Made by a program: the position numbers and the translations under genes. A model generated the notes under the pieces. The model was not told the origin of the DNA. It saw only the letters and a list, made by a program, of their open reading frames with translations, and searched no databases. Below, piece after piece: positions 3,059-61,434 of a DNA stretch of 64,000 bases (within the stretch, counting starts at the first letter, position 1; each line of letters opens with the position of its first letter). This stretch comes from Gemmatimonadales bacterium. Lineage in GTDB: Bacteria > Gemmatimonadota > Gemmatimonadetes > Gemmatimonadales > GWC2-71-9. The stretch is taken from the NCBI GenBank assembly GCA_050733215.1, contig JBOHSN010000006.1:4708-68707 (forward strand), written 5' to 3'.

Positions 3059-3721
3059 CTACAGCGTGTAGCCGATCCCGAACAGAACCCACGGCGACAA
3101 GTCCCATTCCGAGTCCTGCCCCGTGATGATGACTGGATCGGGCGGCTCGAGGAAGCTAGGCGGATAGGTGAGCTTCCAGAAGTTGGCGCGAAACTCGGCA
3201 CGGAGGTGCACCCGGTCGCCCAAGAACACGCGGGTGCCAGCCGTCGGGGCGAAGAAGAACTTCGTGCCGAAGTCGTACCCGCTGGTGTCGGCGGGCACCT
3301 TGCTCCCGAAGCCGAAGCCACCGGCCAGCCCGACGAACGGCGCGAACCCGTTCCAGGTCTTGCCGCCGGTCAGATTGAGTGTGACTAGGGCCTCCGCGAA
3401 CACGACCGACTGGTCCACCGGTCCCGTCACCTCATCGACGAACGGGTCCACGATGAGCCGTTCGAGCTGGCCATACGAGACGCCGAGTCCGAGCGCAAGC
3501 GCCCGGCCGGAACGGAAGTCGAAGCGGCCGCCGAAGGTCCAGCCGCCGTGGGGGCCCACGCCGACGTCGCCGCCGTTGCCGAGGAAACGGCCGCCGTGGA
3601 TCGTGATGCTGCTGCCCTGCTTGATGTCGCGGTAGGGGCTCTTCCGGGGGGCGTGCCCCACCTGCGCCGCGGCGATCGTGGGGGCGAGTGCGAGTGCGAG
3701 TGCGAGGCGGATCGGGCGCAT
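3059..3721 (-). CDS. Secreted outer-membrane beta-barrel-like hypothetical protein
   Basis: Starts at MRPIRLALALALAPTIAAAQ (signal peptide, AxA site), has an alternating beta-strand pattern and ends in an aromatic residue pattern (GIGYTL). The ATG at 3721 sits 3 nt after the gpmI stop. Confidence 0.6.
   Translation of the reverse strand: MRPIRLALALALAPTIAAAQVGHAPRKSPYRDIKQGSSITIHGGRFLGNGGDVGVGPHGGWTFGGRFDFRSGRALALGLGVSYGQLERLIVDPFVDEVTGPVDQSVVFAEALVTLNLTGGKTWNGFAPFVGLAGGFGFGSKVPADTSGYDFGTKFFFAPTAGTRVFLGDRVHLRAEFRANFWKLTYPPSFLEPPDPVIITGQDSEWDLSPWVLFGIGYTL
3684..3707. repeat. Hexamer tandem repeat GCGAGT x3.9, encoding (Leu-Ala)n of a signal peptide
   Basis: The plus strand reads gcgagtgcgagtgcgagtgcgagg and the minus strand encodes RLALALALAP. 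It is the reverse complement of the hexamer array at 19041..19064. Confidence 0.8.
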
Positions 3722-5277: not shown

Positions 5278-5313
5278 GGCTCTCCGCGTGGCCCGCTATT
5301 AGAATCCGCGACG

Positions 5314-6444
5314 GTGACTCAAGCGCCCCAATCTAGTCCTGCCCTCCGCCGGCTACCAGCCTGTGCGCTCGTGTGTTCGCTCGCGCTCGCGACACCGTTC
5401 GCGCGCGTGCTCGAGGCGCAGGACGACGCCCGCGCGACCCGTGACGCGCCGTTCGCGCGCGCCGCCGCCGGCACCGTGCTCGGCACGATGCGGAGCGGCG
5501 CGGAGGTGTCGGCCGGCCGCACGCGCGCCGGCTGGACCGAGGTGACGCTCGAGGGCTGGATCTACGAGCCGTCCGTGGGACGCGACCGGCGCGAGGGGTT
5601 CCAGATCGGCGTAGCGGCGCGGGGAGGGGAGAACCTGCGCGCGGAGCCGAACGGCCGTGTGCTCGCGCGGCTCCGCTATGGCGCGCTGCTCGAGCGCACC
5701 GGCGCCCGCGGCAACTGGGTGCGGGTGCGCCGCAAGGGTTGGGTTCCACGATCGGCCGTGGAGCGGGCGGTGGAGACGGCGGTGGCGCCTGCGGCGCGGC
5801 GGGAGAGGGCGGCAGAGGGCGGGAGAGGACCGGAAAGTGCGGCTGCTGCGACGGCCAGGCGCGACTCCACTCCGCCGGACACGTCCCGCCCTCTCCCGCC
5901 GTCTCCCGCCCCCTCCCGCCCTCCGGAGGAGTCCCGCATTCAGGTCACCCGATCGACCGCGCTCCACGCCGCTCCCGATGCCGCCGGGCTCGGCACCCTC
6001 CAGCCGGGGGTCGATGGCCGCGTGCTGGCGCGCGCGGGCGAGTGGGTGCGCGTGCAGCTCGAGGGCTGGGTGCGCGCAGCGGACGTCGGCCCGCCCGCCG
6101 ACGGCGCGATGGTGGGTGTCTCGGCGGCGGAGCTCCGGGCCGAGCCCGCGCGGTACGTCGGCCAGCTGGTCGAGTGGCGGCTCCAGTTCATTGCCGTTCA
6201 GGAGGCGGACGAGCTCCGGAGCGAACTCCCCGCCGGACAGCCCTTTCTGCTCACGCGGGGGCCACTGCCGGAGCCGGGCTTCGTCTATGTGATCCTGCCC
6301 CGCAACCAGGCGGAGCAGTTCCGCGCTCTTTCGGGGCTCCAGGAGCTGGTGGTCCACGTCAGGATCAGGGCGCCGCGCACGAAGTACCTGACCACCCCAG
6401 TGGTCGAGCTGAGCTCGGTGGTGAGTGGCCTGCCGGGGAAGTAG
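5314..6444 (+). CDS. Secreted hypothetical protein with two SH3-like (SH3_3) modules separated by a repeat-encoded linker
   Basis: An in-frame GTG at 5314 gives a signal-like N-terminus (LPACALVCSLALATPFARVLEAQ). GWTEVTLEGWI and GEWVRVQLEGWV are SH3b-like. The part of ORF 4822..6444 upstream of 5314 is antisense to gpmI. Confidence 0.6.
   Translation: MTQAPQSSPALRRLPACALVCSLALATPFARVLEAQDDARATRDAPFARAAAGTVLGTMRSGAEVSAGRTRAGWTEVTLEGWIYEPSVGRDRREGFQIGVAARGGENLRAEPNGRVLARLRYGALLERTGARGNWVRVRRKGWVPRSAVERAVETAVAPAARRERAAEGGRGPESAAAATARRDSTPPDTSRPLPPSPAPSRPPEESRIQVTRSTALHAAPDAAGLGTLQPGVDGRVLARAGEWVRVQLEGWVRAADVGPPADGAMVGVSAAELRAEPARYVGQLVEWRLQFIAVQEADELRSELPAGQPFLLTRGPLPEPGFVYVILPRNQAEQFRALSGLQELVVHVRIRAPRTKYLTTPVVELSSVVSGLPGK
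5799..5926. repeat. Inverted pair of decamer arrays (GCGGGAGAGG x3 / CCTCTCCCGC-like x3, 52-nt spacer) lying in frame inside a CDS
   Basis: 5799-5828 reads gcgggagagg gcggcagagg gcgggagagg. 5890-5919 reads cctctcccgc cgtctcccgc cccctcccgc. The same family occurs at 45621 and 53668. Confidence 0.85.
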
Positions 6445-6604
6445 GCTATCCGCTATCCGCTAACCGCTATCCGCTAACCGCTAACCGCTATCCGCTATCC
6501 GCTATCCGCTAACCGCTATCCGCTGTACCTTCCAACGAGTTACTGCGCGCGATGCCATCAACGCCCTGCGGATAGCGGATAGCCGATAGCGGATAGCGGA
6601 TAGC
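6445..6604. repeat. Inverted heptamer arrays: GCTAWCC x11 (6445-6521) and GGATAGC x5 (6570-6604), 43-48 nt spacer
   Basis: Direct reading. The arrays start 1 nt after the TAG stop at 6442-6444 and end 6 nt before the ATG at 6611. Confidence 0.95.
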
Positions 6605-8487: not shown

Positions 8488-8503
8488 CAACTGCAGCCGC
8501 GAA

Positions 8504-8570
8504 GGAACGCCAATGCACGCGAATGAGAGTCCATTCGCGCTCATTCGCGCAAATTCGCGGCTTCGGTTCC
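8504..8570. repeat. Hairpin of decamer repeats (CGCGAATGAG-type left arm; NNCATTCGCG x3 right arm)
   Basis: ggaacgccaatgcacgcgaatgagag / tccattcgcg ctcattcgcg caaattcgcg gcttcggttcc. The outer GGAAC...GTTCC ends also pair. Confidence 0.75.
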
Positions 8571-11098: not shown

Positions 11099-12559
11099 AT
11101 GAGCCGAATCCGCCAGGCCGTCGGGCTCACCTTCGACGACGTACTCCTCGTGCCGCGGCATTCGACCGTGCATCCGCGCGAGGTTTCCACCCTGAGCCGG
11201 CTCACCCGCTCCATCCCGCTCAACATCCCGCTCATCTCCGCCGCCATGGACACCGTCACCGAAGCCGAAATGGCCATCGCCATGGCGCGCGCCGGAGGCA
11301 TCGGGGTGATCCACAAGAACATGACGATCGACCGCCAGGCGGCCGAAGTCGATCGGGTGAAGCGCAGCGAGAGCGGGATGATCCTCAACCCGATCACGCT
11401 GGGGCCCGAGCGTCCGGTGCGCGAGGCCTACGCGCTGATGCGGCGGTTCAAGATCTCGGGTGTCCCCATCGTGGACGGCGAGGGCCGCCTCATCGGGATC
11501 ATCACCAACCGCGATCTCCAGTTCGAGCGGAATCTCGACCAGCCGATTCGCGACGCGATGACGAAGGAAAAGCTCGTGACCGCGCCGGTCGGCACCGATC
11601 TCGACGAGGCCGAGCGGATCCTCGCGCGCCACCGTATCGAGAAGCTGCCGGTGGTGGACGCCAGGGGCGTGCTCAAGGGCCTGATCACGGTCAAGGACAT
11701 CTTCAAGCGCCGCGAGCATCCTGACGCCAACAAGGACCAGCACGGCCGTCTCCGGGTCGCTGCCGCCGTGGGTGGCGCGCCCGATGCCGTCACCCGCGCG
11801 CGCGCCCTGGTCGGCGCCGGCGTGGATGTGCTCTGCGTGGACTCGGCACACGGGCACAGCGAAGCCGTGCTCCAGGCGCTCGACGCCATCAAGGAGAGCT
11901 TCCCCGACGTCGAAGTCATCGCGGGCAACGTCGCCACCGAGGCGGGAGCGCGCGAGCTGGTCCGGCGCGGGGCCGACGCCGTCAAGGTGGGCATCGGTCC
12001 GGGCAGCATCTGCACCACCCGCGTGGTCACCGGCGTGGGTGTTCCGCAGGTCACCGCCATCCAGGACGCCGGGCGCGGCGCGGGCGACGTGCCGATCATC
12101 GCCGACGGCGGCATCAAGTACTCCGGCGACGTCGTCAAGGCGATCGCCGCCGGGGCGTCCGCCGCGATGATGGGATCGATGCTCGCTGGCACCGAGGAGA
12201 GCCCCGGCGAGGCGGTGCTGGCCGAGGGCCGGCGCTTCAAGATGATCCGCGGCATGGGCAGCCTGTCGGCCATGCAGGACGGCAGCGCCGACCGGTACTT
12301 CCAGGAAGGCGAGATGACGCCCACCAAGATGGTGCCCGAGGGCATCGAGGGCCGCGTCCCCTACAAGGGCCCGGTGGCCGACGTGCTCTTCCAGATGGTG
12401 GGCGGGCTCCGGAGCGGGATGGGGTACTGCGGCGTCGCCAACCTCGCGGCGCTCCAGTGCGACGTCGAGATGATCCGCGTAACCGCGGCGGGCCTGCGCG
12501 AGTCACACCCGCACGACGTCACGATTACGCGCGAAGCACCGAACTACAGTAAGCAGTGA
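11099..12559 (+). CDS. guaB: IMP dehydrogenase
   Basis: [22 protein letters not shown]..., a CBS pair, the catalytic [11 protein letters not shown] loop and GGIKYSGD. The ATG at 11099 lies inside ORF 10985..12559. Confidence 0.95.
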
Positions 12560-12683
12560 GCAGTAAGCAGTAAGCTGGGGATTCCGGTGCCCGGGCAGAT
12601 CCCGTACGCCCCCGCTCACCGCTTACCGCTCACCGTTTACTGCTCACCGTTTACTGCTCACTGCTCACTGCTCACTGCTCACC
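12548..12683. repeat. Inverted heptamer arrays: AGTRAGC x4 (12548-12575) and GCTYACY/GTTTACT x10 (12614-12683), 38-nt spacer
   Basis: Direct reading. The left arm contains the guaB stop codon (TGA 12557-12559). The right arm ends 17 nt before the permease ATG. Confidence 0.95.
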
Positions 12684-18193: not shown

Positions 18194-19072
18194 TCAATTT
18201 ACCCACTCGACCCGGACCGCACCGACGCTGCACTTGAGCGCGATGTCGAGGTGCGGCTCGGCGGGGTCGAAGTCACGCGTGATCCACGAGCCGCCGCGCT
18301 GGACCAGCCCCTCCGAATCGAAGCTGGACAGGAACTTGTCCATCGTGATCCGCACGGGGGCCCGCTTCGGGAGCCGGAGGCGAAGTTCGCCCATCGACAG
18401 CGTGAGCTCGACCGTCTGGGTCGCGGTCCACACGCCGCCGAAATCAAGCGTGAGCTTCCCGACGCCGCCCTCGACCTTCACCTTCTCGCAGCGGCTGTTG
18501 CCCAATCGGTAGATCGCGAGGTCCGCCGCGCCTGCGGCGAAGATGGCGGAGTGGCAGCGGGTCCGGTTGGGGGCGGAGAAGCGGACGCTGGCCCGGCTCG
18601 CGCCGGTCTCGAGGCGCACGCTCGCGATGCGGAGCCCGCCGAGGTCCAGGTCGGCCTCGCCGGCGCCGAGGTTGAGGTCGAGCGCGAGATCGGCCCTGGG
18701 TGAGAGCTCCACGACGGCCTTCTGCCGGAGCTGATTCTTGGAAACCACGCGGAGCCCCGCGCGTCCGGCCGACTCCACGCCGAGCCGCACCGTGGCAGCG
18801 GGCGCCGCATAGTGGCTCAGCGGGACGAAGCGGTCGGCATCGTAGGAGAGGTGCATCCGGTAGAGCTCGCCGTCCCGGCCAGGCACCACCTTGAGCAGCC
18901 CCGCGGCGAACTCGAGCTGGGCATCGAGCTTGGTTTCACCGTGGAGCTGCCGGAACGTGGAATACGGGCGCCAGCTCTGCGCCGACGCCGCGCCCGTCCA
19001 GCCGAGCAGCGCGCCCGCCGCGGCAACGCCGGTCGCCCATACTCGCACTCGCACTCGCACTCGCACCGGCAC
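18194..19072 (-). CDS. Secreted beta-rich protein, DUF4097/toastrack-like (putative adhesin fold)
   Basis: Signal-like WATGVAAAGALLGWTGAASAQS, then repeated LxLxxGxGxxxLDLGG strands. The start is ambiguous: five in-frame GTGs (19072-19048) lie inside a hexamer repeat. Confidence 0.45.
   Translation of the reverse strand: MPVRVRVRVRVWATGVAAAGALLGWTGAASAQSWRPYSTFRQLHGETKLDAQLEFAAGLLKVVPGRDGELYRMHLSYDADRFVPLSHYAAPAATVRLGVESAGRAGLRVVSKNQLRQKAVVELSPRADLALDLNLGAGEADLDLGGLRIASVRLETGASRASVRFSAPNRTRCHSAIFAAGAADLAIYRLGNSRCEKVKVEGGVGKLTLDFGGVWTATQTVELTLSMGELRLRLPKRAPVRITMDKFLSSFDSEGLVQRGGSWITRDFDPAEPHLDIALKCSVGAVRVEWVN
19041..19064. repeat. Hexamer tandem repeat ACTCGC x4 (minus strand GTGCGA x4, encoding VRVRVRVR)
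   Basis: Direct reading. It is the reverse complement of the array at 3684..3707 and lies at the 5' end of the CDS 18194..19072. Confidence 0.8.
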
Positions 19073-22280: not shown

Positions 22281-22406
22281 AACCACAGAGGACACAGAAA
22301 ACACCGAGAACCGGATTATCCGGCGGTCTCGGGCCGAGATACACGACCCTGAACGCGAGACCACAAACAAGATCGGTTCTCTGTGTTCTCTGTGTCCTCT
22401 GTGGTT
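22281..22406. repeat. 126-nt hairpin element: 33-nt arms (31/33 complementary) built from CACAGAGG-type octamers, with an inner inverted repeat GGTCTCG...CGAGACC
   Basis: Left arm aaccacagaggacacagaaaacaccgagaaccg (22281-22313). Right arm cggttctctgtgttctctgtgtcctctgtggtt (22374-22406). Confidence 0.9.
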
Positions 22407-22438: not shown

Positions 22439-23935
22439 ATGGCGATTGACAGCCTGAGCGAGTTCATCCGCGAGATCGAGAAGATCGGCGAGCTGGTACG
22501 GGTGACGCACCCGGCGAAGGCTCGCCTGGAGATTGCGGAGATTGCCGACCGGTGCATGAAGAGCGCCGGCGGCGGGCCGGCGCTCTTCTTCGAGCACGTG
22601 CTCCTCGACGATGGGCGGCGGAGCGCGTACCCTGTCGCCATCAACCTCTACGGCTCGATGCGGCGCATGTGTCTGGCGCTGGGGGTGAACGCGCTGGATG
22701 AGATCGGCGGGCGCATCAGCGAGCTGCTCGAGCTCAAGGTGCCGGAAGGACTCTTCGGCAAGCTCTCGATGCTCCCGCGTCTGGCCGAAGTCGCCAGGTT
22801 TCCGCCGCGGACCCGGAGCGGCAAGCCGCCGTGCCAGCACACGGTCACGCGGGGGGACAACGTGGATCTCTCCGTTATTCCGTTTCTCACGACCTGGCCC
22901 AAGGACGGCGGACCCTATATCACGCTGCCGATGGTGATCACAACCGATCCTGTGCGCGGCATCCGGAACGTCGGGATGTACCGCGTCCAGGTGCTCGGCC
23001 GGAATACGCTCGCGATGCACTGGCAACGCCACAAGGTGGGCGCGGCGCACTGGCGCGAGATGGCGGCGCGCGGCGAGAAGATGCCGGTGCTCATCGCGCT
23101 CGGCGGTGACCCCGCGAGCATCTACTCCGCCTCGGCGCCGCTCCCACCGACCATCGACGAGTTCATCTTCGCGGGCTTTCTCCGGCGCTCGCCGGTGGAG
23201 CTGGCGAAGGCGGTCACCTGCGACCTGGACGTGCCGGCCGAGGCGGACATCGTCCTCGAGGGATACATCGAGCCGGCCGAGCCGCTCGCGCTCGAGGGGC
23301 CGTTCGGCGACCACACGGGGTTCTACTCGCTCGCGGACTACTACCCCACGGTGCACGTCACGGCCGTCACGATGCGGCGGGATCCGGTGTACCCGGCCAC
23401 GCTGGTGGGCCGCCCGCCGATGGAGGACTACTACCTCGGTCACGCCACCGAGCGGATCTTTCTGCCGCTGCTCCGGCTCACCCTGCCCGAGATCGTTGAT
23501 TACCATATGCCCGCGCCCGGCATCTTCCACAATCTGGTGTTCGTCAGCATCGACAAGCAGTATCCCGGGCAGGCGTGGAAGGTGATGAACGCGCTGTGGG
23601 GCCAGGGGCTGATGTCGCTGGCCAAGGTGATCGTCGTCGTGGACAAGCAGGTGAACGTGCGCGATGCCGACGAGGCGTGGTGGGTGGCGCTCAACAACAT
23701 CGACCCCGAGCGCGATGTCCGCTTTACCATGGGCCCGATGGACGTGCTCGACCACTCGAGCCGGGCCTTCACCTATGGCAGCAAGATGGGGATCGACGCG
23801 ACGCGAAAGTGGAAGGAGGAGGGGTTCGACCGGGAGTGGCCGGAGGTGATCGCGATGGACGAGGCGACCAAGCGGCGCGTAGACGAGATCTGGCCACAGC
23901 TTGGGATCCGGTTGGAGGTGAGAGGTGAGAGGTGA
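22439..23935 (+). CDS. ubiD: UbiD-family (prenyl-FMN-dependent) decarboxylase
   Basis: 498 aa, colinear with UbiD/MqnL-type decarboxylases (...GGPYITLPMVITTDP..., ...FGDHTGFYS...). A ubiX gene is nearby. Confidence 0.9.
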   Translation: MAIDSLSEFIREIEKIGELVRVTHPAKARLEIAEIADRCMKSAGGGPALFFEHVLLDDGRRSAYPVAINLYGSMRRMCLALGVNALDEIGGRISELLELKVPEGLFGKLSMLPRLAEVARFPPRTRSGKPPCQHTVTRGDNVDLSVIPFLTTWPKDGGPYITLPMVITTDPVRGIRNVGMYRVQVLGRNTLAMHWQRHKVGAAHWREMAARGEKMPVLIALGGDPASIYSASAPLPPTIDEFIFAGFLRRSPVELAKAVTCDLDVPAEADIVLEGYIEPAEPLALEGPFGDHTGFYSLADYYPTVHVTAVTMRRDPVYPATLVGRPPMEDYYLGHATERIFLPLLRLTLPEIVDYHMPAPGIFHNLVFVSIDKQYPGQAWKVMNALWGQGLMSLAKVIVVVDKQVNVRDADEAWWVALNNIDPERDVRFTMGPMDVLDHSSRAFTYGSKMGIDATRKWKEEGFDREWPEVIAMDEATKRRVDEIWPQLGIRLEVRGER

Positions 23936-24014
23936 GAGGGAGTACCGAGGCGAGCTCACGAGCCCGACGCCTGCGCCGGAGCCCCCGCTCACGTCTCACC
24001 GCTCACGTCTCACC
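23917..24014. repeat. Inverted heptamer arrays: GGTGAGA x3 (23917-23937) and GCTCACG/TCTCACC x4 (23987-24014)
   Basis: Direct reading. The ubiD stop (TGA 23933) and the only in-frame start of ubiA (GTG 23925) both lie in the left arm. Confidence 0.95.
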
Positions 24015-24902
24015 GCCCGCGAAGGCCAGACGTTTGCCGGCGAGTCCCTCCTCGTCCGCTACGCCAACTTCGTCAAGCTGCCCCATACCCTCTTCGCCCT
24101 GCCGTTCGCGCTGCTCGGCCTGGTGGCGGCCTCGATGGAGGTGCCCGTAACGTGGCGCACCGTGCTCCTGGTGGTTCTCGCGTTCTCGGCGGCGCGCTGG
24201 GTGGCCATGGGCTTCAACCGGATCGCCGACCGGGAGTACGACGCGCGGAACCCGCGCACCCGGAATCGCGAGCTCCCGCGCGGCGCGCTCTCCCTGCCGC
24301 AGGCGTGGGCATCGATCATCCTGGCGGCGGCGCTGTTCGTGCTCGCGGCCGCGCTGCTCAACCGGCTCTGTCTGGCGCTGAGCCCGCTGGCGCTCGCCTG
24401 GGTGATGACCTACAGCTTCGCGAAGCGATTCACCTGGTGGCCGCATCTCTGGTTGGGCCTGAGCCTGGCCATCGCGCCGGTGGGCGGGTGGCTGGCCGTG
24501 ACCGGCGCCTGGAGCGAGCCGTGGTGGCTGCTGGCACCGATCACGGTGGCGGTGGCCACGTGGGTGGCCGGCTTCGACATCTTCTACGCCCTGCCCGACG
24601 AGGCGTTCGACCGGAGCGAGGGACTCCGGAGCGCCGTGGTGCGGCTCGGCGAGAGGCGCGGCATCCTCCTGGCGAAGGTGCTGCACGGGATCACGATCCC
24701 GGCTCTGGGGCTGTTCGGCTGGGCCGCCGGGTTCGGCCGGCTGTACTTCGCCGGCCTCCTCGTCGCGGCGGGCATTCTGATCTACGAGCACCGCCTGGTC
24801 CGGCCTGGTAACCTGACGCGCCTCGATGCGGCGTTCTTCACCATGAACGGTGTGATGAGCGTGACGGTCTTTCTGTTCGCGCTGGGGGATCGGCTGCTGT
24901 GA
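23925..24902 (+). CDS. ubiA: UbiA-family aromatic prenyltransferase (4-hydroxybenzoate polyprenyltransferase-like)
   Basis: Multi-TM protein with NRIADREYDARNPRTRNR (the NxxxDxxxD region). The first about 33 codons are repeat-derived. There is no other ATG/GTG/TTG before the conserved N-terminus (VRYANFVKLPHT). Confidence 0.8.
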   Translation: MRGEREYRGELTSPTPAPEPPLTSHRSRLTAREGQTFAGESLLVRYANFVKLPHTLFALPFALLGLVAASMEVPVTWRTVLLVVLAFSAARWVAMGFNRIADREYDARNPRTRNRELPRGALSLPQAWASIILAAALFVLAAALLNRLCLALSPLALAWVMTYSFAKRFTWWPHLWLGLSLAIAPVGGWLAVTGAWSEPWWLLAPITVAVATWVAGFDIFYALPDEAFDRSEGLRSAVVRLGERRGILLAKVLHGITIPALGLFGWAAGFGRLYFAGLLVAAGILIYEHRLVRPGNLTRLDAAFFTMNGVMSVTVFLFALGDRLL

Positions 24903-42333: not shown

Positions 42334-42400
42334 GGGCGGCTCACGGTTCGGGTATGCCCGGCTCTACGGGCCGGCATTGAGGCATGTTTCAGATTGAACG

Positions 42401-42422
42401 GTCGTCGGTCGTCGGTCGTCGG
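42401..42422. repeat. Heptamer tandem repeat GTCGTCG x3 (single arm, no stop codon in the unit)
   Basis: gtcgtcg gtcgtcg gtcgtcg g, in the 99-nt intergenic gap. Confidence 0.8.
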
Positions 42423-44785: not shown

Positions 44786-46180
44786 ATGTCCGGTACCCTG
44801 ATGATCAGCGTGTCGGGCATGCGTGGTCACGTCGGCACGGACCTCACGCCCGAGGTCGTCGCGCGCCACGCCGCGGCGCTCGGGGCGTGGGCGCGCATGC
44901 AGGGCCGTCCCCTGGTGGTGCTCGGCCGGGACGCCCGCACCAGCGGCCCGATGTTCGCGCACGCGGCGGCCGCCGGTCTCATGTCCGTCGGTGCCGACGT
45001 GATCGACCTGGGCATCGTCCCCACGCCGACCACGCAGCTCGCCGTAGAGCACCATCACGCCGGCGCCGGCCTCATCCTCACGGCCAGCCACAATCCGATC
45101 GAGTGGAACGCCCTCAAGCTCGTGGGCCCGGACGGCATCTTCCTCGACGCGGCGGCGGGCGCCGCGGTCCGGGCACTGGCCGATGCGGGCCCGGTACGAG
45201 CCGGCTGGGACGGCATCGGCCGGGTGCATGAAGATCCGGACGCGGTGGCCCGACATCTCGCCGCCATTCTCGCGCTGCCTGTGATCGACGTCGCAGCGAT
45301 CCGCGCGCGAGGCTTTCATGTGGCGCTCGACTGCGTGCGGGGGGCCGGAGGTGTCGCACTTCCGCCACTCCTCGAGCGACTCGGTGTCCGCGTGAGCGGC
45401 ATCCATCTGGAGGCCGACGGTCGCTTTCCCCATCCCCCCGAACCGGTCCCCGAGAATCTCGGCGACCTGGAACGGCTGGTGCGGGAGAGCGGGGCCGACC
45501 TGGGGCTCGCCGTGGACCCGGATGTGGACCGGCTCGCGCTGGTGGACGAAACCGGTACGGCCGTGGGCGAGGACTATACCCTGGCGCTCGCGGTGCGAGC
45601 GGTGCTTGGGCAGGGAAGCCGAGGGCGGGAGCGGGCGGGAGAGAGCGGGACAGGTGACGCTGCTCCCGCTGTCGTGGTCAATCTTTCTACCAGCCTGGTC
45701 GTGGAGGACGCGGCGCGGGACCACAACGCGCGCTTCGTGCGTGCGCCCGTCGGGGAGGCGAACGTCGCGCGGGCGATCCGGGACGAGGCCGCGCTTATCG
45801 GCGGGGAAGGCAACGGGGGGGTGATTCTCCCGGCGCTGCACATCGGCCGCGATGCACCCCTCGGCGTGGCCTTGATTTTGCACTATTTGGCCAAGGTTGG
45901 GGCATCGCTTTCGAGCGTCGTCGCTGCGTCGCCGCGCTACGTGATTCTGAAGGCGAAAGGGCCGCGCGGGCCCGAGCTGGGACCGCTGTACGATCGGCTC
46001 CGGCGGCGCTTCCCCGAAGCGGACGCGGACGCGCGGGACGGGTTGCGGCTGGCCTGGCGGGACCGATGGCTGCACGTGCGGCCCTCCGGCACCGAGCCGA
46101 TCGTCCGGCTGATCGCGGAAGCCCCGACGGCCGCCGAGGCGGAGGCCCTGGTCTCCGCCGCGCGCGAACCGCTGACCTGA
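44786..46180 (+). CDS. Phosphohexomutase (phosphoglucosamine/phosphomannomutase family)
   Basis: VSGMRG and the active-site TASHNP. Four-domain length. It lies immediately upstream of glmS, which suggests a GlmM-like role. Contains an apparent repeat-derived insertion at 45621-45673. Confidence 0.85.
   Translation: MSGTLMISVSGMRGHVGTDLTPEVVARHAAALGAWARMQGRPLVVLGRDARTSGPMFAHAAAAGLMSVGADVIDLGIVPTPTTQLAVEHHHAGAGLILTASHNPIEWNALKLVGPDGIFLDAAAGAAVRALADAGPVRAGWDGIGRVHEDPDAVARHLAAILALPVIDVAAIRARGFHVALDCVRGAGGVALPPLLERLGVRVSGIHLEADGRFPHPPEPVPENLGDLERLVRESGADLGLAVDPDVDRLALVDETGTAVGEDYTLALAVRAVLGQGSRGRERAGESGTGDAAPAVVVNLSTSLVVEDAARDHNARFVRAPVGEANVARAIRDEAALIGGEGNGGVILPALHIGRDAPLGVALILHYLAKVGASLSSVVAASPRYVILKAKGPRGPELGPLYDRLRRRFPEADADARDGLRLAWRDRWLHVRPSGTEPIVRLIAEAPTAAEAEALVSAAREPLT
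45621..45673. repeat. Short member of the GCGGGAG decamer family inside the phosphohexomutase CDS
   Basis: GCGGGAG at 45625, 45635 and 45645 (10-nt period), then the inverted unit CTCCCGC at 45663. It encodes ...SRGRERAGESGTGDAAP... Confidence 0.7.
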
Positions 46181-51524: not shown

Positions 51525-52165
51525 GCGCCACCCGGCTGGTGCTGGCGTCGTCGTCCCCCCGGCGGCGGCAGCTGCTCGAGATGCTGGGGATTCCCGTCGA
51601 CGTGCGGCCCCCGCACATCAACGAAGTGCGCGCAGCGGAGGAGACGCCGCGGGAGTACGTGGAGCGGCTCGCGGTCGAGAAAGCGGGTGCCGTGCCGGGC
51701 GAGCTCGTTCTGGCGGCGGACACTACCGTGGTCGTGGACGCGGAGGTGCTCGAGAAACCGGTGGATGAGGCCGACGCGTTGCGAATGCTCGAGCGCCTGG
51801 CGGGGCGCACGCACGAGGTCATCACCGCCATTGCGCTCCGCGCGCCCGGCGGGACCCGTCAGGCCACCGACGTCACGCGGGTGACGTTCCGTGCGGCCGA
51901 CCGGAGGCTGCTTCGCGCCTACGTCGCCACCGGCGAGCCGATGGACAAGGCGGGCGCGTATGGTATCCAGGGCTATGGCGCGGCGCTGGTCGAGCGGATC
52001 GAGGGCGACTTCTTCGGCGTGATGGGGCTGCCGGTGCGGCTGGTGCTCGAGCTCCTGGAGCAGGCGGGGCATCCGTACCGCTTCGGGATGAGCGGATGGC
52101 CCGATGGTCCATCGATCGTCACCACCGAACCCGGAACACCTCCACCGTCTGCGTCTTTCCCCTGA
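51521..52165 (+). CDS. maf: Maf-family nucleoside triphosphate pyrophosphatase
   Basis: [14 protein letters not shown]..., [10 protein letters not shown]. The GTG overlaps the dtd stop (GTGA). The C-terminal tail overlaps the convergent cyclase gene by 47 nt. Confidence 0.85.
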
Positions 52166-53654
52166 GGCCCGTGCCCGGCAGGTGCTCGGCGTCGACCGGC
52201 GTCGTCATGGCCCGACGGAAATCCTCACTCACCAGGATATCGCCGGGCCCGGCTTCGCCGCAGAGCCGTTGCGCCACGTTCACGGCGTCGCCGATGACGG
52301 TGTACTCGAGGCGGCGATGGCTCCCGATGTTGCCCACGAAGACCTCGCCGTGGTTGATGCCGATGCCGACCGCGATGGTGGGGCGGCCGGCGGCGCGCCA
52401 CCGCTGGTTCAGGCCCTCGACGGTCTGCTGCATCGCCACTGCCGCCTGATAGGCGCGATGGGGATCGTCGGGGTGCGCCACCGGCGCGCCCCAGAGCGCC
52501 ATCAGCGCATCGCCGATGAACTTGTCCAGCGTGCCGCCGTGCTCGAAGATCACGTCGACCATCTCGGTGAAGTAGTCGGTGAGCAGTGCGGCGATGGCGT
52601 CCGGCTCCATCCGCTCCGCCATGGCGGTGAAGTTCCGGATGTCCGCGAAGAGCACCGTCATCGGCCGCCGCTCGCCGCCCAGGAGAATGGCCTGCTGATG
52701 ACGCGCGATCTCCGCGGCGACGTTGGGCGCGAAGTACCGCTCGAAGTTGGCGCGGACGTTTTCTTCGCGGCGCAGCCGCTCGGCGTACCTGCTGGTCCGG
52801 ATCGCCACCGCCGCAAGCCCGCTGAACGCCACCAGGAACTGGAGGTCCTCGTCGCCGAAGGAGTTCGCGATGGCGAGGTTGTCCACGTACAGCACGCCGA
52901 GCACTTCGTCGCCTTCGGCCATCAGCGGAGAGCACATCGCGCTCCGGACGCTCTGCTGGAGGATGGACTTGCCCTTGAAGCGGGTATCGGTGGCGGCGTT
53001 CTGGGTCAGTACCGCGAGCCGCTCGTCCATCACCTTCTGCACGATCGAGCGCGGCACGTGCTGGAACTCCGCGTCACCCACCCGCGTCCGCGAGATGCGG
53101 GGCACCAGCTCGCCGGTGCTTTCGTTCAGGAGCAGGATGGAGATGCGGTCCACCTGCATCACCTCGAAGGTGACCGAGACCACCGTGTCGAGCAGCCGGT
53201 CGATGTCGAGCTCGCCCGAGAGCTTCTGGGCCACGCCGAGCAGCAGGTTGAGCTTGTGCGCGGCGGCGTCGGACGGCGTTTCGGCGTTCCGCACGCGCAC
53301 CTGGCGCACGATGGTTCCGCCCGCCGGCGCGCCGGTGGGCGGCGGCACCGCCGCATCGCCGGGCCCGCGCACCGCCTGGAGCTGGTAGACCAGCTTGCCG
53401 AAGGAGACCGAGTCGTTGGGTCCCAGGCGGCCGGCGGCGACCCGGCGGCCGTTGATGCAGGTGCCGTTGGATGAGCCGAGGTCCTTGACGTGGACGCCGT
53501 CGGCCGCGACGGTGAGCTCGGCGTGGCGTCGCGAGACGGTGGGGTCGTAGATCGCGATGTCGCTCGCGACGCCGCGGCCCAGGATCACCGGCCGGCCGGC
53601 CGGGAGCTCGAAGGTCTGGGTGCCTGAGGTACTGACCAGGCGGTAGAGGGGCAT
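52119..53654 (-). CDS. FHA - GAF - class III adenylate/guanylate cyclase
   Basis: FHA: ILGRG...DPTVSRRHAEL...DLGSSNGT. A central GAF-like region. Cyclase: TVLFADIRNFT...FIGDALMALWG...GINHGEVFVGNIG. Confidence 0.85.
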   Translation of the reverse strand: MPLYRLVSTSGTQTFELPAGRPVILGRGVASDIAIYDPTVSRRHAELTVAADGVHVKDLGSSNGTCINGRRVAAGRLGPNDSVSFGKLVYQLQAVRGPGDAAVPPPTGAPAGGTIVRQVRVRNAETPSDAAAHKLNLLLGVAQKLSGELDIDRLLDTVVSVTFEVMQVDRISILLLNESTGELVPRISRTRVGDAEFQHVPRSIVQKVMDERLAVLTQNAATDTRFKGKSILQQSVRSAMCSPLMAEGDEVLGVLYVDNLAIANSFGDEDLQFLVAFSGLAAVAIRTSRYAERLRREENVRANFERYFAPNVAAEIARHQQAILLGGERRPMTVLFADIRNFTAMAERMEPDAIAALLTDYFTEMVDVIFEHGGTLDKFIGDALMALWGAPVAHPDDPHRAYQAAVAMQQTVEGLNQRWRAAGRPTIAVGIGINHGEVFVGNIGSHRRLEYTVIGDAVNVAQRLCGEAGPGDILVSEDFRRAMTTPVDAEHLPGTGLRGKTQTVEVFRVRW

Positions 53655-53667
53655 AGGGGAAAAGTAG

Positions 53668-53792
53668 GCGGGAGAGGGCGGGAGGGGGCGGGAGGGGGAG
53701 GGAGAGGGAGCCGGATCGGGCGGCTCCGCTGTTCACGCCGGGGGCGTTCCTGCCTCTCCCGCCCTCTCCCGCCCTCTTTCGCCCTCTCCCGC
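53668..53792. repeat. Inverted decamer arrays GCGGGAGRGG x4 (53668-53707) and CCTCTYYCGC x4 (53753-53792), 42-45 nt spacer
   Basis: Direct reading. The right arm encodes the last about 19 codons of trpE. The left arm ends 14 nt upstream of the cyclase start codon. Confidence 0.95.
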
Positions 53793-55268
53793 CGCAAGCG
53801 CCAGTGCAAGCAACACCGCCCGCGCCTTCGCCTCGGTCTCGCGGAGCTCGGCCGCCGGGTCGGAGTCGGCCACGATGCCGGCGCCGGCCTGCACCCAGGC
53901 CCGTCCGTTCCGCATGACGCAGGTGCGCAGCGCGATCGCGGTATCGAGTACCTGCGCCCCCCAGCCGACGTATCCCACGGCGCCCGCGTACGGTCCACGG
54001 CGCACCGGCTCGAGCTCGTCGATGATCTCCATCGCGCGGACCTTGGGCGCGCCGCTCACCGTGCCGGCGGGGAAGCAGGCCGCGAGCGCGGCCACGGCGT
54101 CGAGCTCCGGCCGCAGCCGGCCGCGCACCTCGCTGACGAGGTGCATGACGTGCGAGTACCGTTCGATCGTCATGAACTCCGTGAGGTGCACCGAGCCGAA
54201 CTCGGCGACCCGGCCCACGTCGTTCCGCCCCAGGTCCACCAGCATCAGATGCTCGGCCCGCTCCTTCGGGTCGGCTTCCAGCTCCGCGGCGAGCGCAGCG
54301 TCGCGCTCGGGCGTGTCGCCCCGCAGCCGGGTGCCGGCGATCGGCCGGAGCGTGACCTCCCGGTCCTCCACCCGCACGAGAATCTCGGGCGAGCTGCCGA
54401 CGATATGGACGTCGTCGAAGTGCAGGCAGTAGAGATACGGCGCCGGGTTGAGCGCGCGGAGGTAACGGTATGTCAGAAACGGATCGGGGGCGGGGAGATC
54501 CAGCCGGCGGGAGAGCACCGTCTGAAAGGTGTCGCCCGCGGCAATGTACTCCTTGATCCGGCGTACGTCGCGCTCGAAACGGGTGTCGGTGTAGGGCGAC
54601 GTTACGGACGGGACAGCGGCCGGCTCCATCGGCAGCGGCCGCAGTATGGCGGGACCGGCGAGACGCGCCAGCCAATCGTCGATGCGGGCTTCGGCAGTTT
54701 CGTGCAGCCGGGCCAGCGTCGCCTCGTCCGCGCCGTCCGGCACATCGACGTTCGCGATCACGGTCGCGCGATTGTACAGATTGTCGAGCACGAGGAGCGT
54801 GTCGGCCACCATGAGGAGCGCGTCCGGCAGATCGCGGTCGTCCGGCGGGGGTGACGGCAACGACTCGAGGGTGCGCACGATGTCGTACCCGAGGTAGCCC
54901 ACGGCGCCGCCGGTGAAGCGCGGCAGCCCGGGCACCTCCACCGGGGCGTAGCGCCGCATCGCGCGGCCGAGGTGCTCGAGCGGGGCGATGTCCTCGGCCT
55001 CGAGCTGCCAGCCCGCCGCCGCGGTCCACCGCTCGCAGCGTCGCCCGCGGTAGCGGAACACCTCGCGCGGATCGGTGGCCAGAAACGTGTAGCGGGCCCA
55101 TCGCTCGCCCCCCTCGAGCGACTCGAGCAGGAAGCCGAAGGGGCCCCGGTGCAGTTTCGCGAATGCCGCGACCGGCGTATCACCGTCGAGCAGCACCTGA
55201 CGGGTGACCGGCACGATGGCGCCGCCCGCCCGGGCGCCGGCCCTGATCGCCTCCAGGCCGACGCTCAC
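53733..55268 (-). CDS. trpE: Anthranilate synthase component I
   Basis: 511 aa and colinear with TrpE (...LESLEGGERWARY..., ...GAPKVRAMEII..., GAGIVADS). The C-terminal tail AAGEGERGRERAGEAGTPPA is repeat-derived. Confidence 0.9.
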   Translation of the reverse strand: MSVGLEAIRAGARAGGAIVPVTRQVLLDGDTPVAAFAKLHRGPFGFLLESLEGGERWARYTFLATDPREVFRYRGRRCERWTAAAGWQLEAEDIAPLEHLGRAMRRYAPVEVPGLPRFTGGAVGYLGYDIVRTLESLPSPPPDDRDLPDALLMVADTLLVLDNLYNRATVIANVDVPDGADEATLARLHETAEARIDDWLARLAGPAILRPLPMEPAAVPSVTSPYTDTRFERDVRRIKEYIAAGDTFQTVLSRRLDLPAPDPFLTYRYLRALNPAPYLYCLHFDDVHIVGSSPEILVRVEDREVTLRPIAGTRLRGDTPERDAALAAELEADPKERAEHLMLVDLGRNDVGRVAEFGSVHLTEFMTIERYSHVMHLVSEVRGRLRPELDAVAALAACFPAGTVSGAPKVRAMEIIDELEPVRRGPYAGAVGYVGWGAQVLDTAIALRTCVMRNGRAWVQAGAGIVADSDPAAELRETEAKARAVLLALALAAGEGERGRERAGEAGTPPA

Positions 55269-55861: not shown

Positions 55862-56008
55862 GGTGAGAGGCAAATGGTGAGCGGTGAGCGGTGAGCGGAT
55901 CGGAGGCATGATGACTCAGTGCGTTGTCCGGGGGTTGGCAGTCTGGACCGTCCCGCTTCTCGTGTACTGCTTACCGCTCACCGCTCACCGCTCACCGCTT
56001 ACCGCCCA
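55862..56008. repeat. Inverted heptamer arrays: GGTGAGM x4 (55862-55868, 55876-55896) and CCGCTYA-type x5-6 (55967-56008), flanking the start codon of the plus-strand gene
   Basis: Direct reading. The SD (GGAGG 55902) and ATGATG (55908-55913) lie in the loop. The right arm is translated as LPLTAHRSPLTAQ. Confidence 0.95.
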
Positions 56009-60323: not shown

Positions 60324-61423
60324 CCGAATCGCTCGCGGACGCGAGCCCGGCCATCGAGCTGGTGAAGCCCGCGGTCCGGGGACAGCCGGCGTACACGCTC
60401 GTTCCGCGCCCGTCCCGCCGCAAACTGAATCAGAACGAGAGTCCGTGGGACGTGCCGGAGGCGCTCAAGCGCGAGATCATCGAGCGCGCGATGGCGCTGC
60501 CGTGGAACCGCTACCCGGAGTTCGTTCCGTCCGAGCTGCTCCAGCGGCTCGCGGCGGCGCACGCGTGGCACCCCGACGGGATCCTGGTCGGCAACGGCTC
60601 CAACGAGCTGATCCAGGCGGTGCTCGCCACCACGCTCTCGCCCGGCGAAGCCGTCGTGGCGCCGTCGCCGACGTTCTCGCTCTACCGCCTGCTGACCAAC
60701 GTGTTCGACGGCCGCTACGTGCCGGTGGCGCTGGGCGGGGATTTCCGGTACGACGTTGATTCGCTGATCAAGGCGGCCGTGCGGGAGCGCGCCCGGGTCG
60801 TGGTGCTCAACTCGCCGAACAACCCCACCGGTAGCACGCTGCCGCCCGACGGCGTGGAGCGTGTGCTCGAGGCGACCGACGCGCTGGTGCTGTGCGACGA
60901 GGCGTATCAGGACTTCGGTGGCCCCACCGCCGTGCCGCTGCTGCCGTCGTCCCCGCGAGTCGTGGTCCTCCGCACGTTCTCCAAGGCGTTCGGTCTCGCG
61001 GGGCTCCGCTTCGGCTACGCGCTGGCGCATCCTTCGCTGGCGCGGGAGATCGCCAAGGGCAAGCTGCCGTACAACGTGAACGCCATCACGCTCGCGGCCG
61101 CGGCGATGCTGATGGAGCACGCGGAGCTCCGCACCGAACGGATCCGCTCCCTCGTCGCGACGCGGGATCGCACGGTGGATCGCCTCCGCGCGCTCCGGGG
61201 CATCAGGGTGTACCCGACCGCCGCCAACTTTGTGCTCCTCCGCTGCCAGGGCGTGCCGGCGCGCGATGTCTTCCGGCGGCTGCTGGACGAGCACGGCATT
61301 CTCGTGCGCGATGTGTCCAGCGGGAGCGAGCTCCAGGAGTGCCTGCGGATCTCCATCGGCACGGAGGAGGACATGGACGCGGTCGCCGCGGCGCTGGAGC
61401 AGATCGTCGGCGGTGAGCGGTGA
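60320..61423 (+). CDS. hisC: Histidinol-phosphate aminotransferase
   Basis: LNQNESP, NPNNPTG and the PLP lysine region FSKAFGLAGLRFGY. The ATG overlaps the upstream stop (ATGA). The stop lies inside a heptamer array. Confidence 0.9.
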   Translation: MTESLADASPAIELVKPAVRGQPAYTLVPRPSRRKLNQNESPWDVPEALKREIIERAMALPWNRYPEFVPSELLQRLAAAHAWHPDGILVGNGSNELIQAVLATTLSPGEAVVAPSPTFSLYRLLTNVFDGRYVPVALGGDFRYDVDSLIKAAVRERARVVVLNSPNNPTGSTLPPDGVERVLEATDALVLCDEAYQDFGGPTAVPLLPSSPRVVVLRTFSKAFGLAGLRFGYALAHPSLAREIAKGKLPYNVNAITLAAAAMLMEHAELRTERIRSLVATRDRTVDRLRALRGIRVYPTAANFVLLRCQGVPARDVFRRLLDEHGILVRDVSSGSELQECLRISIGTEEDMDAVAAALEQIVGGER

Positions 61424-61434
61424 GCGGTGAGCGG
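61412..61434. repeat. Heptamer tandem repeat GGTGAGC x3 (single arm) containing the hisC stop
   Basis: ggtgagc ggtgagc ggtgagc gg. TGA occurs at 61414, 61421 and 61428, so in all three frames. Confidence 0.95.

What the first reader, a model, noticed from the sequence alone, without database searches (positions are those of the whole stretch)
5799..5926. About 128-nt GCGGGAGAGG inverted-array element sits in frame inside a coding sequence, forming the linker between two SH3-like modules
The left arm is gcgggagagg gcggcagagg gcgggagagg, followed by a 52-nt spacer and the right arm cctctcccgc cgtctcccgc cccctcccgc. The units contain no stop triplet on either strand, so the element is translated as ...RERAAEGGRGPESAAAATARRDSTPPDTSRPLPPSPAPSRPPEE.... 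Its spacer begins CCGGAAAGTGCGGCTGCTG, which resembles the spacer of the intergenic copy at 53711 (CCGGATCGGGCGGCTCCGCTG). Shared arms, spacer and size argue for dispersal of one element, not independent slippage.
Basis: partly seen in the sequence, partly recalled or inferred. Interest (0 to 1): 0.7.

Follow-up and report, generated by a model that had tools for sequence, protein, structure and literature searches.

The report
Translated palindromic decamer microsatellite in linker
A long hairpin-forming stretch of inverted G-rich 10-base repeats sits in frame inside a Gemmatimonadales SH3-domain gene and is translated as a floppy linker; it looks like a palindromic microsatellite evolving in place, not an inserted mobile element.

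Summary
Three GCGGGAGAGG units (5799-5828) face three to four CCTCTCCCGC-type units (5884-5923). They lie in frame in a conserved SH3-domain gene (5314-6444) and code for a segment predicted to be disordered. The element has no stop codon in any of six frames and folds as one hairpin (RNA -91.5 kcal/mol, z -3.8).

The "dispersed mobile element" reading is not supported:
- Spacer similarity to the 53.7 kb copy is at chance level (732 of 5000 shuffles).
- There are no target-site duplications.
- 90%-identical relatives carry only a short G/C hairpin at the trpE site.
- The third copy, in a phosphosugar-mutase loop, grew from a resident 1.5-unit seed.
- All orthologues have a linker here, so this is not a clean 42-codon insertion.

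The hairpin persists in 7 of 9 orthologues (the eighth, L008, is weak, z -1.5; L002 has none). Arms change together: one gene that is 93% identical has an 8-mer unit yet still forms a hairpin.

Best reading: an inverted microsatellite evolving in place by slippage plus arm-to-arm templated correction. It is tolerated because it is stop-free and sits in a disordered linker. The closest known kinds are the convergent G4 heptamer arrays of Xanthomonas and, for the in-frame aspect, Rickettsia palindromic elements. This is a new variant of a known kind.

The parts
5314..6444 (+). Host gene: a putative secreted protein with SH3-like modules. The GTG start at 5314 is inferred from the conserved N-terminus (V/M)TQAPQSSPALRRLP.
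   Evidence: ORF. Start read and aligned. Pfam SH3_4 at 4.3e-08. 1533 homologues, named Gemmatimonadales by their sources. Conserved synteny: gpmI(-) | this gene | small ORF | amino-acid permease.
5770..5928 (+). Segment coding for the predicted disordered linker (residues 154-206 of the translation that starts at 5311).
   Evidence: In the AlphaFold2 model, pLDDT is below 50 only for residues 1-37 and 154-206. Flanking beta modules at 39-152 and 208-251 score about 74-94 in 10-residue blocks, against 30-42 in the linker.
5799..5828 (+). Left (G-rich) arm: three decamer units GCGGGAGAGG / GCGGCAGAGG / GCGGGAGAGG. It carries a G-quadruplex motif on the + strand at 5801-5823.
5829..5842 (+).
   Evidence: It aligns column by column with GGCGGGAGAGGGCG in L006, L007 and L010.
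5843..5883 (+). Spacer at the apex of the hairpin. It is translated as ...AAAATARRDSTPPDT.
   Evidence: The RDSxxxD(T/S) peptide is conserved in close orthologues.
5884..5923 (+). Right (C-rich) arm: about four units of TCCCGCCCTC type, translated as SRPLPPSPAPSRP. It carries a G-quadruplex motif on the - strand at 5905-5921.
5790..5927 (+). Full predicted hairpin formed by both arms and the spacer.
   Evidence: As RNA: MFE -91.5 kcal/mol, z -3.79, 0 of 200 dinucleotide shuffles as stable. As DNA: -48.4 kcal/mol, z -2.91. Against a null that shuffles codons within each arm: z -3.9, 0 of 150.
45621..45668 (+). Second locus of the same decamer family: 3.4 G-rich units plus a single TCCCGC. It lies in frame in a surface loop of a phosphosugar/phosphoglucosamine mutase gene (44786-46180) and is translated as GSRGRERAGESGTGDAAP.
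   Evidence: It is a ~14-residue insertion relative to PDB 1wqa and 9du5. Loop length is graded among orthologues. The short allele in L106 carries the seed GGGAGCGGGCGGGAAC.
53667..53793 (.). Third locus: a full inverted decamer element lying between the trpE coding region proper (homology to solved TrpE ends near residue 494) and the start of the downstream FHA-GAF-cyclase gene (52119-53654, -). Its right arm is read on the minus strand as the TrpE tail ...AGEGERGRERAGEAGTPPA*.
   Evidence: It is absent from 90%-identical relatives L103 and L104, which have a 25-nt gap between the genes.

Best explanation
The feature is a palindromic (inverted) microsatellite. A tandem array of a G-rich decamer faces an array of its reverse complement, and the two form one long hairpin or cruciform-capable unit.

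It belongs to a lineage-wide habit of these Gemmatimonadales genomes. They carry many such inverted arrays at gene boundaries, with various 7-10-nt units.

This copy lies inside a coding sequence for two reasons. First, the decamer and its complement lack stop codons in all six frames. Second, it sits in a disordered inter-domain linker, where almost any Gly/Arg/Glu-rich followed by Pro/Ser/Leu-rich peptide is tolerated.

It was not delivered recently by transposition. It has been at this place since before the sampled relatives diverged.

Inferred mechanism: it evolves in place by replication slippage, which adds, removes or replaces units. Hairpin-templated (quasipalindrome-type) template switching then copies changes from one arm to the other. 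Only length changes that are multiples of three survive. The protein simply reads through it as a spacer.
For: Shown:
- The element is in frame, in a segment predicted to be disordered, and stop-free.
- Every heptamer family in the window has stops in all frames of one arm and is intergenic. All three decamer loci overlap coding sequence.
- In 7 of 9 orthologues with DNA the same place folds as a long hairpin, with z from -3.1 to -6.0. This also holds against a null that shuffles codons within each arm, so it preserves amino-acid composition and the G-left/C-right split (z -2.7 to -5.5).
- The arms change together. L001 has GGCGGGAGCS units in both arms. L107, whose coding sequence is 92.7% identical to L010 with near-identical flanks, has GGCGGGCA/(GCCC)n arms in place of GGCGGGAGAG. 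It is 39 nt shorter and still forms a hairpin at -86 kcal/mol.
- The arms of L107 and L001 match only their own partners. Self versus cross 10-mer sharing is 0.64 versus 0.44, reached by 560 of 40320 permutations. For duplex energy, 21 of 5040 permutations do as well.
- Growth in place is visible at the other two loci. The mutase loop grew from a seed to an array. The trpE stop region went from a short G/C hairpin to a 127-nt element.
- There is no TSD and no conserved core.

Established knowledge:
- Quasipalindromes are made more perfect by template switching (PMC7202029).
- Convergent G-rich array pairs are common in Xanthomonas and are conserved in gene context, with variable copy number (PMC4692102).
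Against: - Three loci in 64 kb share the same decamer, although single units are no more frequent than base composition predicts. Pure local slippage from random seeds does not explain this. Some exchange between loci, or a preference for this sequence, is needed.
- In several pairs the linker DNA is more alike than fourfold-degenerate sites: window-L006 0.88 versus 0.61, window-L009 0.69 versus 0.47. This hints at constraint, not neutral turnover. However, low complexity inflates identity.
- Strict column-wise covariation is modest. Nine of 48 RNAalifold pairs have double changes and the covariation term is +1.9.
- The template-switch step is inferred, not observed.
- L008 has a weak hairpin (z -1.5) and L002 has lost it. 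Whatever maintains the hairpin is therefore not absolute.
Confidence: 0.55

Rival explanations
1. It is a non-autonomous mobile element (MITE-, REPIN- or RPE-like) that inserted once into the linker of an ancestor. The three decamer loci are dispersed copies of one element.
For: - One decamer is shared at three loci, far above chance.
- The two full copies are of similar size (~127 nt).
- Relatives differ in presence or absence at the trpE site and at the neighbouring heptamer element after the SH3 gene.
- RPEs are a precedent for palindromic elements inserted in frame (PMC10969869).
Against: - No target-site duplication at either site where empty and filled states can be compared. The 'empty' trpE site holds 35 different nucleotides with its own small G/C hairpin.
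- The spacers are unrelated.
- The mutase copy is one-armed and graded in length among orthologues.
- All orthologues already have a linker.
- An exact 20-mer scan of 241 million metagenome records gave only 92 stretches, with heterogeneous contexts.
- The 49-residue linker peptide has no hit in other proteins (low sensitivity).
Confidence: 0.2
2. The hairpin (or its G-quadruplex alternative) is a selected nucleic-acid element inside the gene. It might be an mRNA structure at a domain boundary that slows ribosomes or serves as a processing or stability site, or a DNA structure or protein-binding array. The translated peptide would be a by-product.
For: - The hairpin is kept after complete replacement of the unit.
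- It is kept in lineages whose synonymous sites are near saturation.
- It is specific beyond amino-acid and codon composition.
- Even the 41%-identical orthologue with a short linker has a small hairpin there (z -2.4, 1 of 200).
- G4 motifs lie on the 5' arm of each strand.
Against: - L002 has lost the hairpin and in L008 it is weak, while both genes stay intact.
- No T-run follows the stem, so it is not an intrinsic terminator.
- There is no Rfam family.
- Arm-to-arm templated repair would keep a hairpin without selection.
- Similar arrays occur at many unrelated gene boundaries, which suggests a general mutational habit.
Confidence: 0.2
3. It is only a low-complexity protein linker (a polyampholyte followed by a proline-rich part). 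Its G-rich and C-rich codons happen to be complementary in a 70% G+C genome.
For: - GGN/CGG/GAG codons are reverse complements of NCC/CCG/CTC codons.
- Distant orthologues also have Pro/Ala-rich linkers.
Against: - Shuffling codons within each arm destroys about 20 kcal/mol of stability. None of 150 shuffles reaches the observed value in 6 of 8 genomes.
- The arrays have strict 10-nt periodicity, which is not a multiple of three.
- The same unit occurs at a largely non-coding locus.
Confidence: 0.04

Closest known systems
Convergent ('tandemly inverted') G-rich heptamer arrays of Xanthomonas (GGGAATC) and Nostoc (Rehm et al. 2015, PMC4692102)
   Same: - Head-to-tail arrays of a short G-rich unit with G-quadruplex potential.
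- Pairs on opposite strands, close together, that can form stem-loops.
- A few units per array, commonly about four.
- Mostly at ORF ends.
- Kept in the same gene context between related species, with copy-number change.
- A minority overlap ORFs.
   Different: - The unit is 10 nt, not 7, and the lineage is Gemmatimonadales.
- A complete inverted pair lies in the middle of a coding sequence, is read through in frame and is kept across many species.
- Concerted remodelling of both arms is documented here.
Rickettsia palindromic elements (RPEs) (Ogata et al. 2000, from my own knowledge; reviewed in PMC10969869)
   Same: - A palindromic DNA element of about 100-150 bp lying in frame inside protein-coding genes.
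- It is translated as an extra peptide at positions the protein tolerates.
   Different: - RPE copies share a full-length consensus and a conserved peptide, and are regarded as mobile.
- Here the copies share only the repeat unit, the spacers are unrelated, there are no insertion signatures, and there is evidence of growth in place.
REPINs (REP doublets forming hairpins; PMC3116915, PMC3337134)
   Same: - A ~100-130-nt hairpin made of two inverted repeats around a spacer.
- Vertically inherited, and persistent at orthologous sites for long periods.
   Different: - REP arms are unique imperfect palindromes, not tandem arrays.
- REPINs are extragenic and depend on a RAYT transposase.
- No RAYT could be assessed here.
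Quasipalindrome correction by replication template switching (Ripley 1982; Dutra and Lovett 2006; PMC7202029)
   Same: It is a known mechanism that makes imperfect inverted repeats more perfect. It would therefore copy a change in one arm into the other.
   Different: It is known as a point or small-indel mutational hotspot in E. coli, yeast and T4. It has not been described as a long-term driver of growth and concerted evolution of inverted microsatellites. Its action here is inferred.

Membership tests
Convergent G-rich SSR pair (Xanthomonas/Nostoc type) | Head-to-tail array of a short G-rich unit, several copies long | tested here: met
   TRF finds 3.1 and 4.0 copies of a 10-nt unit at 5798-5828 and 5884-5923.
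Convergent G-rich SSR pair (Xanthomonas/Nostoc type) | Two arrays on opposite strands, close together, G-rich arm first on each strand | tested here: met
   Inverted arms are 37 nt long and 86% complementary, with 49 nt between them. Among the 92 metagenome hits, the partner arm lies downstream in 7 and upstream in 0.
Convergent G-rich SSR pair (Xanthomonas/Nostoc type) | Four or more G3 tracts (G-quadruplex motif) | tested here: met
   The regex motif is found at 5801-5823 (+) and 5905-5921 (-). Actual folding was not measured.
Convergent G-rich SSR pair (Xanthomonas/Nostoc type) | Located in intergenic DNA within about 50 bp of an ORF end | tested here: not met
   This copy is 485 nt from the start and about 520 nt from the stop of its gene. 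The 53.7 kb copy does meet this feature.
Convergent G-rich SSR pair (Xanthomonas/Nostoc type) | [quoted passage not shown] | tested here: met
   Present in eight of the nine other orthologous loci with DNA: L001, L006-L010, L107, and the L003/L004 pair, whose contigs break inside the element. The arrays that could be measured have 3-4.5 units per arm. Absent or degenerate in L002.
MITE | Target-site duplication flanking the element | tested here: not met
   Filled and empty sites were compared at trpE (window versus L103/L104) and after the SH3 gene (window versus L001/L002). No duplicated flank was found. The empty sites hold different short sequences.
MITE | Copies share a conserved internal sequence and defined terminal inverted repeats | tested here: not met
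   Spacer similarity is at chance level. The arm ends are ragged array ends that differ between orthologues.
MITE | Related autonomous IS or transposase in the genome | not testable with these tools
   Only a 64-kb window and about 150 kb of relatives were available.
REPIN | Arms are REP sequences, each a short imperfect palindrome, in inverted orientation | tested here: not met
   The arms are tandem decamers with no internal palindrome.
REPIN | A single-copy RAYT gene in the genome | not testable with these tools
   A whole genome is needed.
Rickettsia palindromic element-like in-frame element | Palindromic element of ~100-150 bp inserted in frame in ORFs | tested here: met
   The 128-nt hairpin lies in frame.
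Rickettsia palindromic element-like in-frame element | Copies in unrelated genes share a full-length consensus and a conserved peptide | tested here: not met
   The three loci share only the unit. phmmer with the linker peptide found nothing in 1.84 billion representatives.
Intrinsic (Rho-independent) terminator | G+C-rich stem followed directly by a run of T | tested here: not met
   The sequence after the stem is CCTCCGGAGGAGTCCCGCATTCAGG, with no T-run.

The most novel reading that the evidence does not exclude
The hairpin is not a passenger. One reading is that these Gemmatimonadales select for a very stable intragenic RNA or DNA structure at this domain boundary, so that the disordered protein linker is literally a translated structural nucleic-acid element. 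The other reading is that the lineage has a dedicated, sequence-preferring process that seeds and regenerates inverted arrays at gene boundaries and linkers. That would explain why the same decamer recurs at three loci, and why a 93%-identical gene has a completely different unit but the same architecture.
Probability: 0.2. Interest if true: 0.8.

Novelty: new variant of a known kind. Interest (0 to 1): 0.55.

Why it matters
- It is a clear natural case in which a nucleic-acid-level repeat structure, not protein-level selection, dictates the sequence of a disordered protein linker. It shows one route by which such linkers can grow and turn over.
- It gives comparative evidence for concerted evolution of the two arms of an inverted microsatellite, including whole-unit replacement. 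This makes the long-term role of template switching at palindromes testable in a natural system.
- It explains which repeat families can invade coding sequence: only those that are stop-free in all six frames.
- Practically, these elements break metagenome assemblies inside genes and create odd C-terminal tails and loop insertions in annotated enzymes.

Tried and rejected
- Spacer homology between the two full copies was rejected.
- The exact 20-mer scan of metagenome contigs gave 92 heterogeneous hits, of which only 7 had a partner arm. It did not yield a family with a common core.
- My first regex for paired arms found none because it was too strict. It was replaced by a complementarity scan.
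- phmmer of the 49-residue linker peptide against 1.84 billion representatives gave 0 hits. This is uninformative for a short, low-complexity query.
- Foldseek of the whole multi-domain model against the PDB gave only weak or irrelevant matches. The best was a YrvJ model, and OB-fold hits covered the C-terminal part.
- RNAalifold column covariation was weak, because the repeats allow register shifts and most core columns are invariant. I used self-versus-cross arm tests instead.
- DNA for P0013 and P0017 could not be fetched.
- Rfam has no match anywhere in the window.
- An intrinsic-terminator reading was rejected because no T-run follows the stem.
- The protein-only low-complexity reading was rejected by the codon-shuffle null.
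Full report
**What is there**

Reading the window confirms the observation. Three decamers, GCGGGAGAGG / GCGGCAGAGG / GCGGGAGAGG, occupy 5799-5828. Their complements, CCTCTCCCGC / CGTCTCCCGC / CCCCTCCCGC, occupy 5890-5919. A partial unit sits on each side of the right arm (5884-5889 and 5920-5924).

Tandem Repeats Finder reports 3.1 and 4.0 copies of a 10-nt unit. The repeat finder reports 37-nt arms that are 86% complementary. A double unit with up to three mismatches occurs 13 times in the window against 0.07 expected.

These hits fall at three loci:
- this one;
- 45621-45668;
- 53667-53793.

Its first 14 nt are a decayed fourth unit, because they align to GGCGGGAGAGGGCG in orthologues. The region folds as one hairpin. 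As RNA the energy is -91.5 kcal/mol, z -3.79, with 0 of 200 dinucleotide shuffles as stable. As DNA it is -48.4 kcal/mol, z -2.91.

**The host gene**

The ORF is real. It has 1533 database homologues, which their sources name as Gemmatimonadales. It matches Pfam SH3_4. Its neighbourhood is conserved: gpmI on the other strand, then this gene, a small ORF and an amino-acid permease. The start is the GTG at 5314, judged from the conserved N-terminus.

An AlphaFold2 model built on 27 sequences is confident for beta-rich modules at residues 39-152 and 208-251 and for a C-terminal domain. It is below pLDDT 50 only for the N-terminal signal-like part and for residues 154-206, which are window 5770-5928. 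A fold search of the whole model added nothing useful.

**Is it a 42-codon insertion?**

No. In the protein alignment every orthologue, down to 50% identity, has a variable Pro/Ala-rich linker at this place. Lengths run from about 40 to 90 residues. An orthologue that is 41% identical has about 20.

Only the closer relatives carry the tell-tale peptide pair ARRERAGEGGRG ... SRPLPPSPAPSR. These share about 73-90% identity over the whole protein, or 81-93% outside the linker.

**The element in orthologues**

I obtained DNA for nine orthologous loci. In one MAG the assembly breaks exactly inside the element (L003/L004).

Counting the window and the eight complete orthologous linkers, seven of nine fold as a long hairpin well beyond dinucleotide shuffles, with z from -3.1 to -6.0. 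L008 is weak (z -1.5). L002 has lost the right arm (z 0.0).

The complementarity is not a by-product of a Gly/Arg/Glu-rich then Pro/Ser-rich peptide. I shuffled codons within each arm, which keeps amino-acid composition, codon usage and the G-left/C-right split. This lost about 20 kcal/mol, and 0 of 150 shuffles reached the observed value in six of eight genomes.

**The arms evolve together**

- L001 has GGCGGGAGCS units in both arms. L009 has GGGAGRGGGN-type units in both.
- The strongest case is L107. Its coding sequence is 92.7% identical to that of L010, and the flanks of the linker are almost identical. Yet L010 has four GGCGGGAGAG units per arm, while L107 has (GGCGGGCA)3-4 facing (GCCC)n. 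L107 is 39 nt shorter, still in frame, and still forms one hairpin at -86 kcal/mol, z -5.0.
- In a self-versus-cross test, left arms share 10-mers with the reverse complement of their own right arm more than with those of other genomes. The values are 0.64 versus 0.44, reached by 560 of 40320 permutations. The arms of L107 and L001 match only their own partners.
- Duplex energies agree, with 21 of 5040 permutations as good.
- Column-wise covariation is modest: 9 of 48 pairs have double changes. This is expected where repeats allow register shifts.
- The unit is not free to drift everywhere. Between the window and L006, L009 or L001, fourfold-degenerate sites are 0.61, 0.47 and 0.49 identical, while the linker DNA is 0.88, 0.69 and 0.69 identical. 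Low complexity inflates the linker figures.

**Dispersal or local origin?**

- The claimed spacer similarity to the 53.7 kb copy is at chance level. The score of 16 is reached by 732 of 5000 shuffles and by 17% of random genomic 42-mers.
- At the trpE locus, two relatives with 90%-identical TrpE have only 25 nt between trpE and the downstream FHA-GAF-cyclase gene. In place of the 127-nt element they carry 35 different nucleotides that contain a short G-run/C-run hairpin across the stop codon. There is no duplicated flank. The window's TrpE tail, EGERGRERAGEAGTPPA, is unique among the 60 homologue tails read (of 120 listed) and lies beyond the end of homology to solved structures.
- At the mutase locus the array is a ~14-residue loop insertion relative to PDB homologues. 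Loop length is graded among orthologues. A short allele carries GGGAGCGGGCGGGAAC, a 1.5-unit seed of the same decamer.
- The neighbouring heptamer element after the SH3 gene is present in most relatives but absent in L001 and L002, again without a duplicated flank.
- An exact 20-mer scan of metagenome contigs gave only 92 stretches, in heterogeneous contexts. Seven had a complementary arm, always downstream.
- The linker peptide has no detectable relatives in other proteins. That search is weak for such a query.

None of this fits a MITE, REPIN or RPE in the strict sense.

One fact remains unexplained. Three loci within 64 kb use one decamer, while single units elsewhere occur only at the frequency expected from base composition: GGCGGGAG is seen 14 times against 12.4 expected, and the full unit once against 0.65.

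**Why this family, and why here**

The window holds at least six other inverted-array elements, with 7-, 9- or 10-nt units (GCTATCC, GGTGAGC, CAGTAAG, GAGGTGA, CGCGAATGAA, CACAGAAAA). All lie at gene boundaries.

Each heptamer unit has a stop codon in every frame of one orientation, so an inverted pair cannot lie within a gene. The decamer GGCGGGAGAG and its complement have none in six frames, and the whole 128-nt element has none. All three decamer loci overlap coding sequence. I read this as a filter: only this family can survive inside genes, and only where the protein tolerates an arbitrary flexible peptide.

**Mechanism**

What is shown:
- a translated, stop-free, hairpin-forming inverted microsatellite;
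- long residence at one site;
- coupled change of both arms;
- growth from seeds at sister loci.

What is inferred: slippage changes unit number and type. Hairpin-templated template switching then transfers changes between arms. This is the known process that makes quasipalindromes more perfect (PMC7202029). Selection removes out-of-frame states.

I cannot separate this from selection for the hairpin itself, for example as a translational pause or processing site, or as a G4/cruciform element. G4 motifs lie on the 5' arm of each strand. No T-run follows the stem, so it is not an intrinsic terminator. Rfam has nothing in the window.

**Comparison with known systems**

The nearest described kind is the pairs of convergent G-rich heptamer arrays in Xanthomonas. 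There are 70-75 per genome. They are G4-forming in vitro, lie mostly near ORF ends, 83% are kept in the same gene context between two species, and 7-11% overlap ORFs (PMC4692102).

For the in-frame aspect the nearest kind is the Rickettsia palindromic elements (PMC10969869). REPINs resemble it in size, hairpin form and vertical persistence, but not in arm structure (PMC3116915).

I found no description of such elements in Gemmatimonadota in the searchable library. That is not proof of absence.

**Verdict**

It is a new variant of a known kind.

Interest is moderate (0.55). The concerted arm remodelling inside a coding sequence, and the link it shows between a selfish or structural DNA repeat and a disordered protein linker, are the parts a specialist would want to follow.

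Noticed in passing
window 6445-6604; also 8498-8559, 12547-12683, 22284-22403, 23915-24016, 55876-56005; single arrays at 61410-61434, 42399-42422, 3684-3706, 19041-19066: The window is dotted with inverted pairs of tandem arrays using other units (GCTATCC x11 / GGATAGC x5; CGCGAATGAA; CAGTAAG / GCTCACY; CACAGAAAA; GAGGTGA; GGTGAGC). All lie at gene boundaries, some starting right at a stop codon or ending just before a start codon. The decamer element is one member of a genome-wide habit.
   Followed up: partly
window 6445-6604 and L003 533-640, L006 11056-11146, L007 11072-11206, L008 10108-10214, L010 2503-2603: The GCTATCC element after the SH3 gene is at the same place in most relatives, with very different copy numbers (3-11 per arm). 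Its spacer core is conserved (GCTGTACCTTTCAACC.GTTGCTGTTCGCGATGCCGTCGC). It is absent in L001 and L002, where the two genes are about 10 nt apart. In L009 a second array, (CCGACGA)x12, is nested inside it.
   Followed up: partly
L009 7525-7651 versus L007 7541-7667, L004 7599-7712, L008 6569-6679, L006 7589-7648: At one orthologous intergenic site, downstream of the PTPS gene, four genomes have GCTATCC/GGATAGC arms. L009 has ATGAGCT/AGCTCAT arms with the same hairpin architecture. This is unit replacement at a fixed site, as in the SH3 linker of L107.
   Followed up: no
L004 end (10468) and L003 start (1): In MAG JBOHSY (89% identical protein) two contigs end inside the SH3 gene exactly at the edges of the decamer element. 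Such elements fragment short-read assemblies within genes.
   Followed up: no
window 5881-5919 (peptide SRPLPPSPAPSRP): The C-rich arm is translated as RPLPPSP. From my own knowledge this matches the class I eukaryotic SH3 ligand consensus RxxPxxP (compare RPLPPLP), and it sits in a protein made of bacterial SH3-like modules. It is probably a coincidence of translating CCTCTCCCGC arrays, and bacterial SH3b domains are not known to bind such motifs.
   Followed up: no
P0298 (TrpE homologue) C-terminus; P0268, P0293: Other TrpE orthologues have different repetitive tails after the conserved LALALA end (for example ...KTGRRGKTGKTGKTGKKPYGG). The trpE stop region seems to be a recurrent site for arrays that run over the stop codon.
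   Followed up: no
L001 10535-10580 and L009 10470-10500 (spacer of the SH3 element): The spacer itself carries a ~15-nt tandem duplication in L001 and L009 (GACTCGGCGCGGGCC GACTCGGCGTCGGTC GATTCAGTC; peptide DSARADSASVDSVS). This shows slippage at a second period that is in frame.
   Followed up: no
L005 10400-10520: The 41%-identical orthologue, with only a ~20-residue linker and no arrays, still has a 12-bp-class hairpin in the linker-coding DNA (z -2.39, 1 of 200 shuffles). This is either a possible seed or a hint that a hairpin at this domain boundary is older than the arrays.
   Followed up: partly
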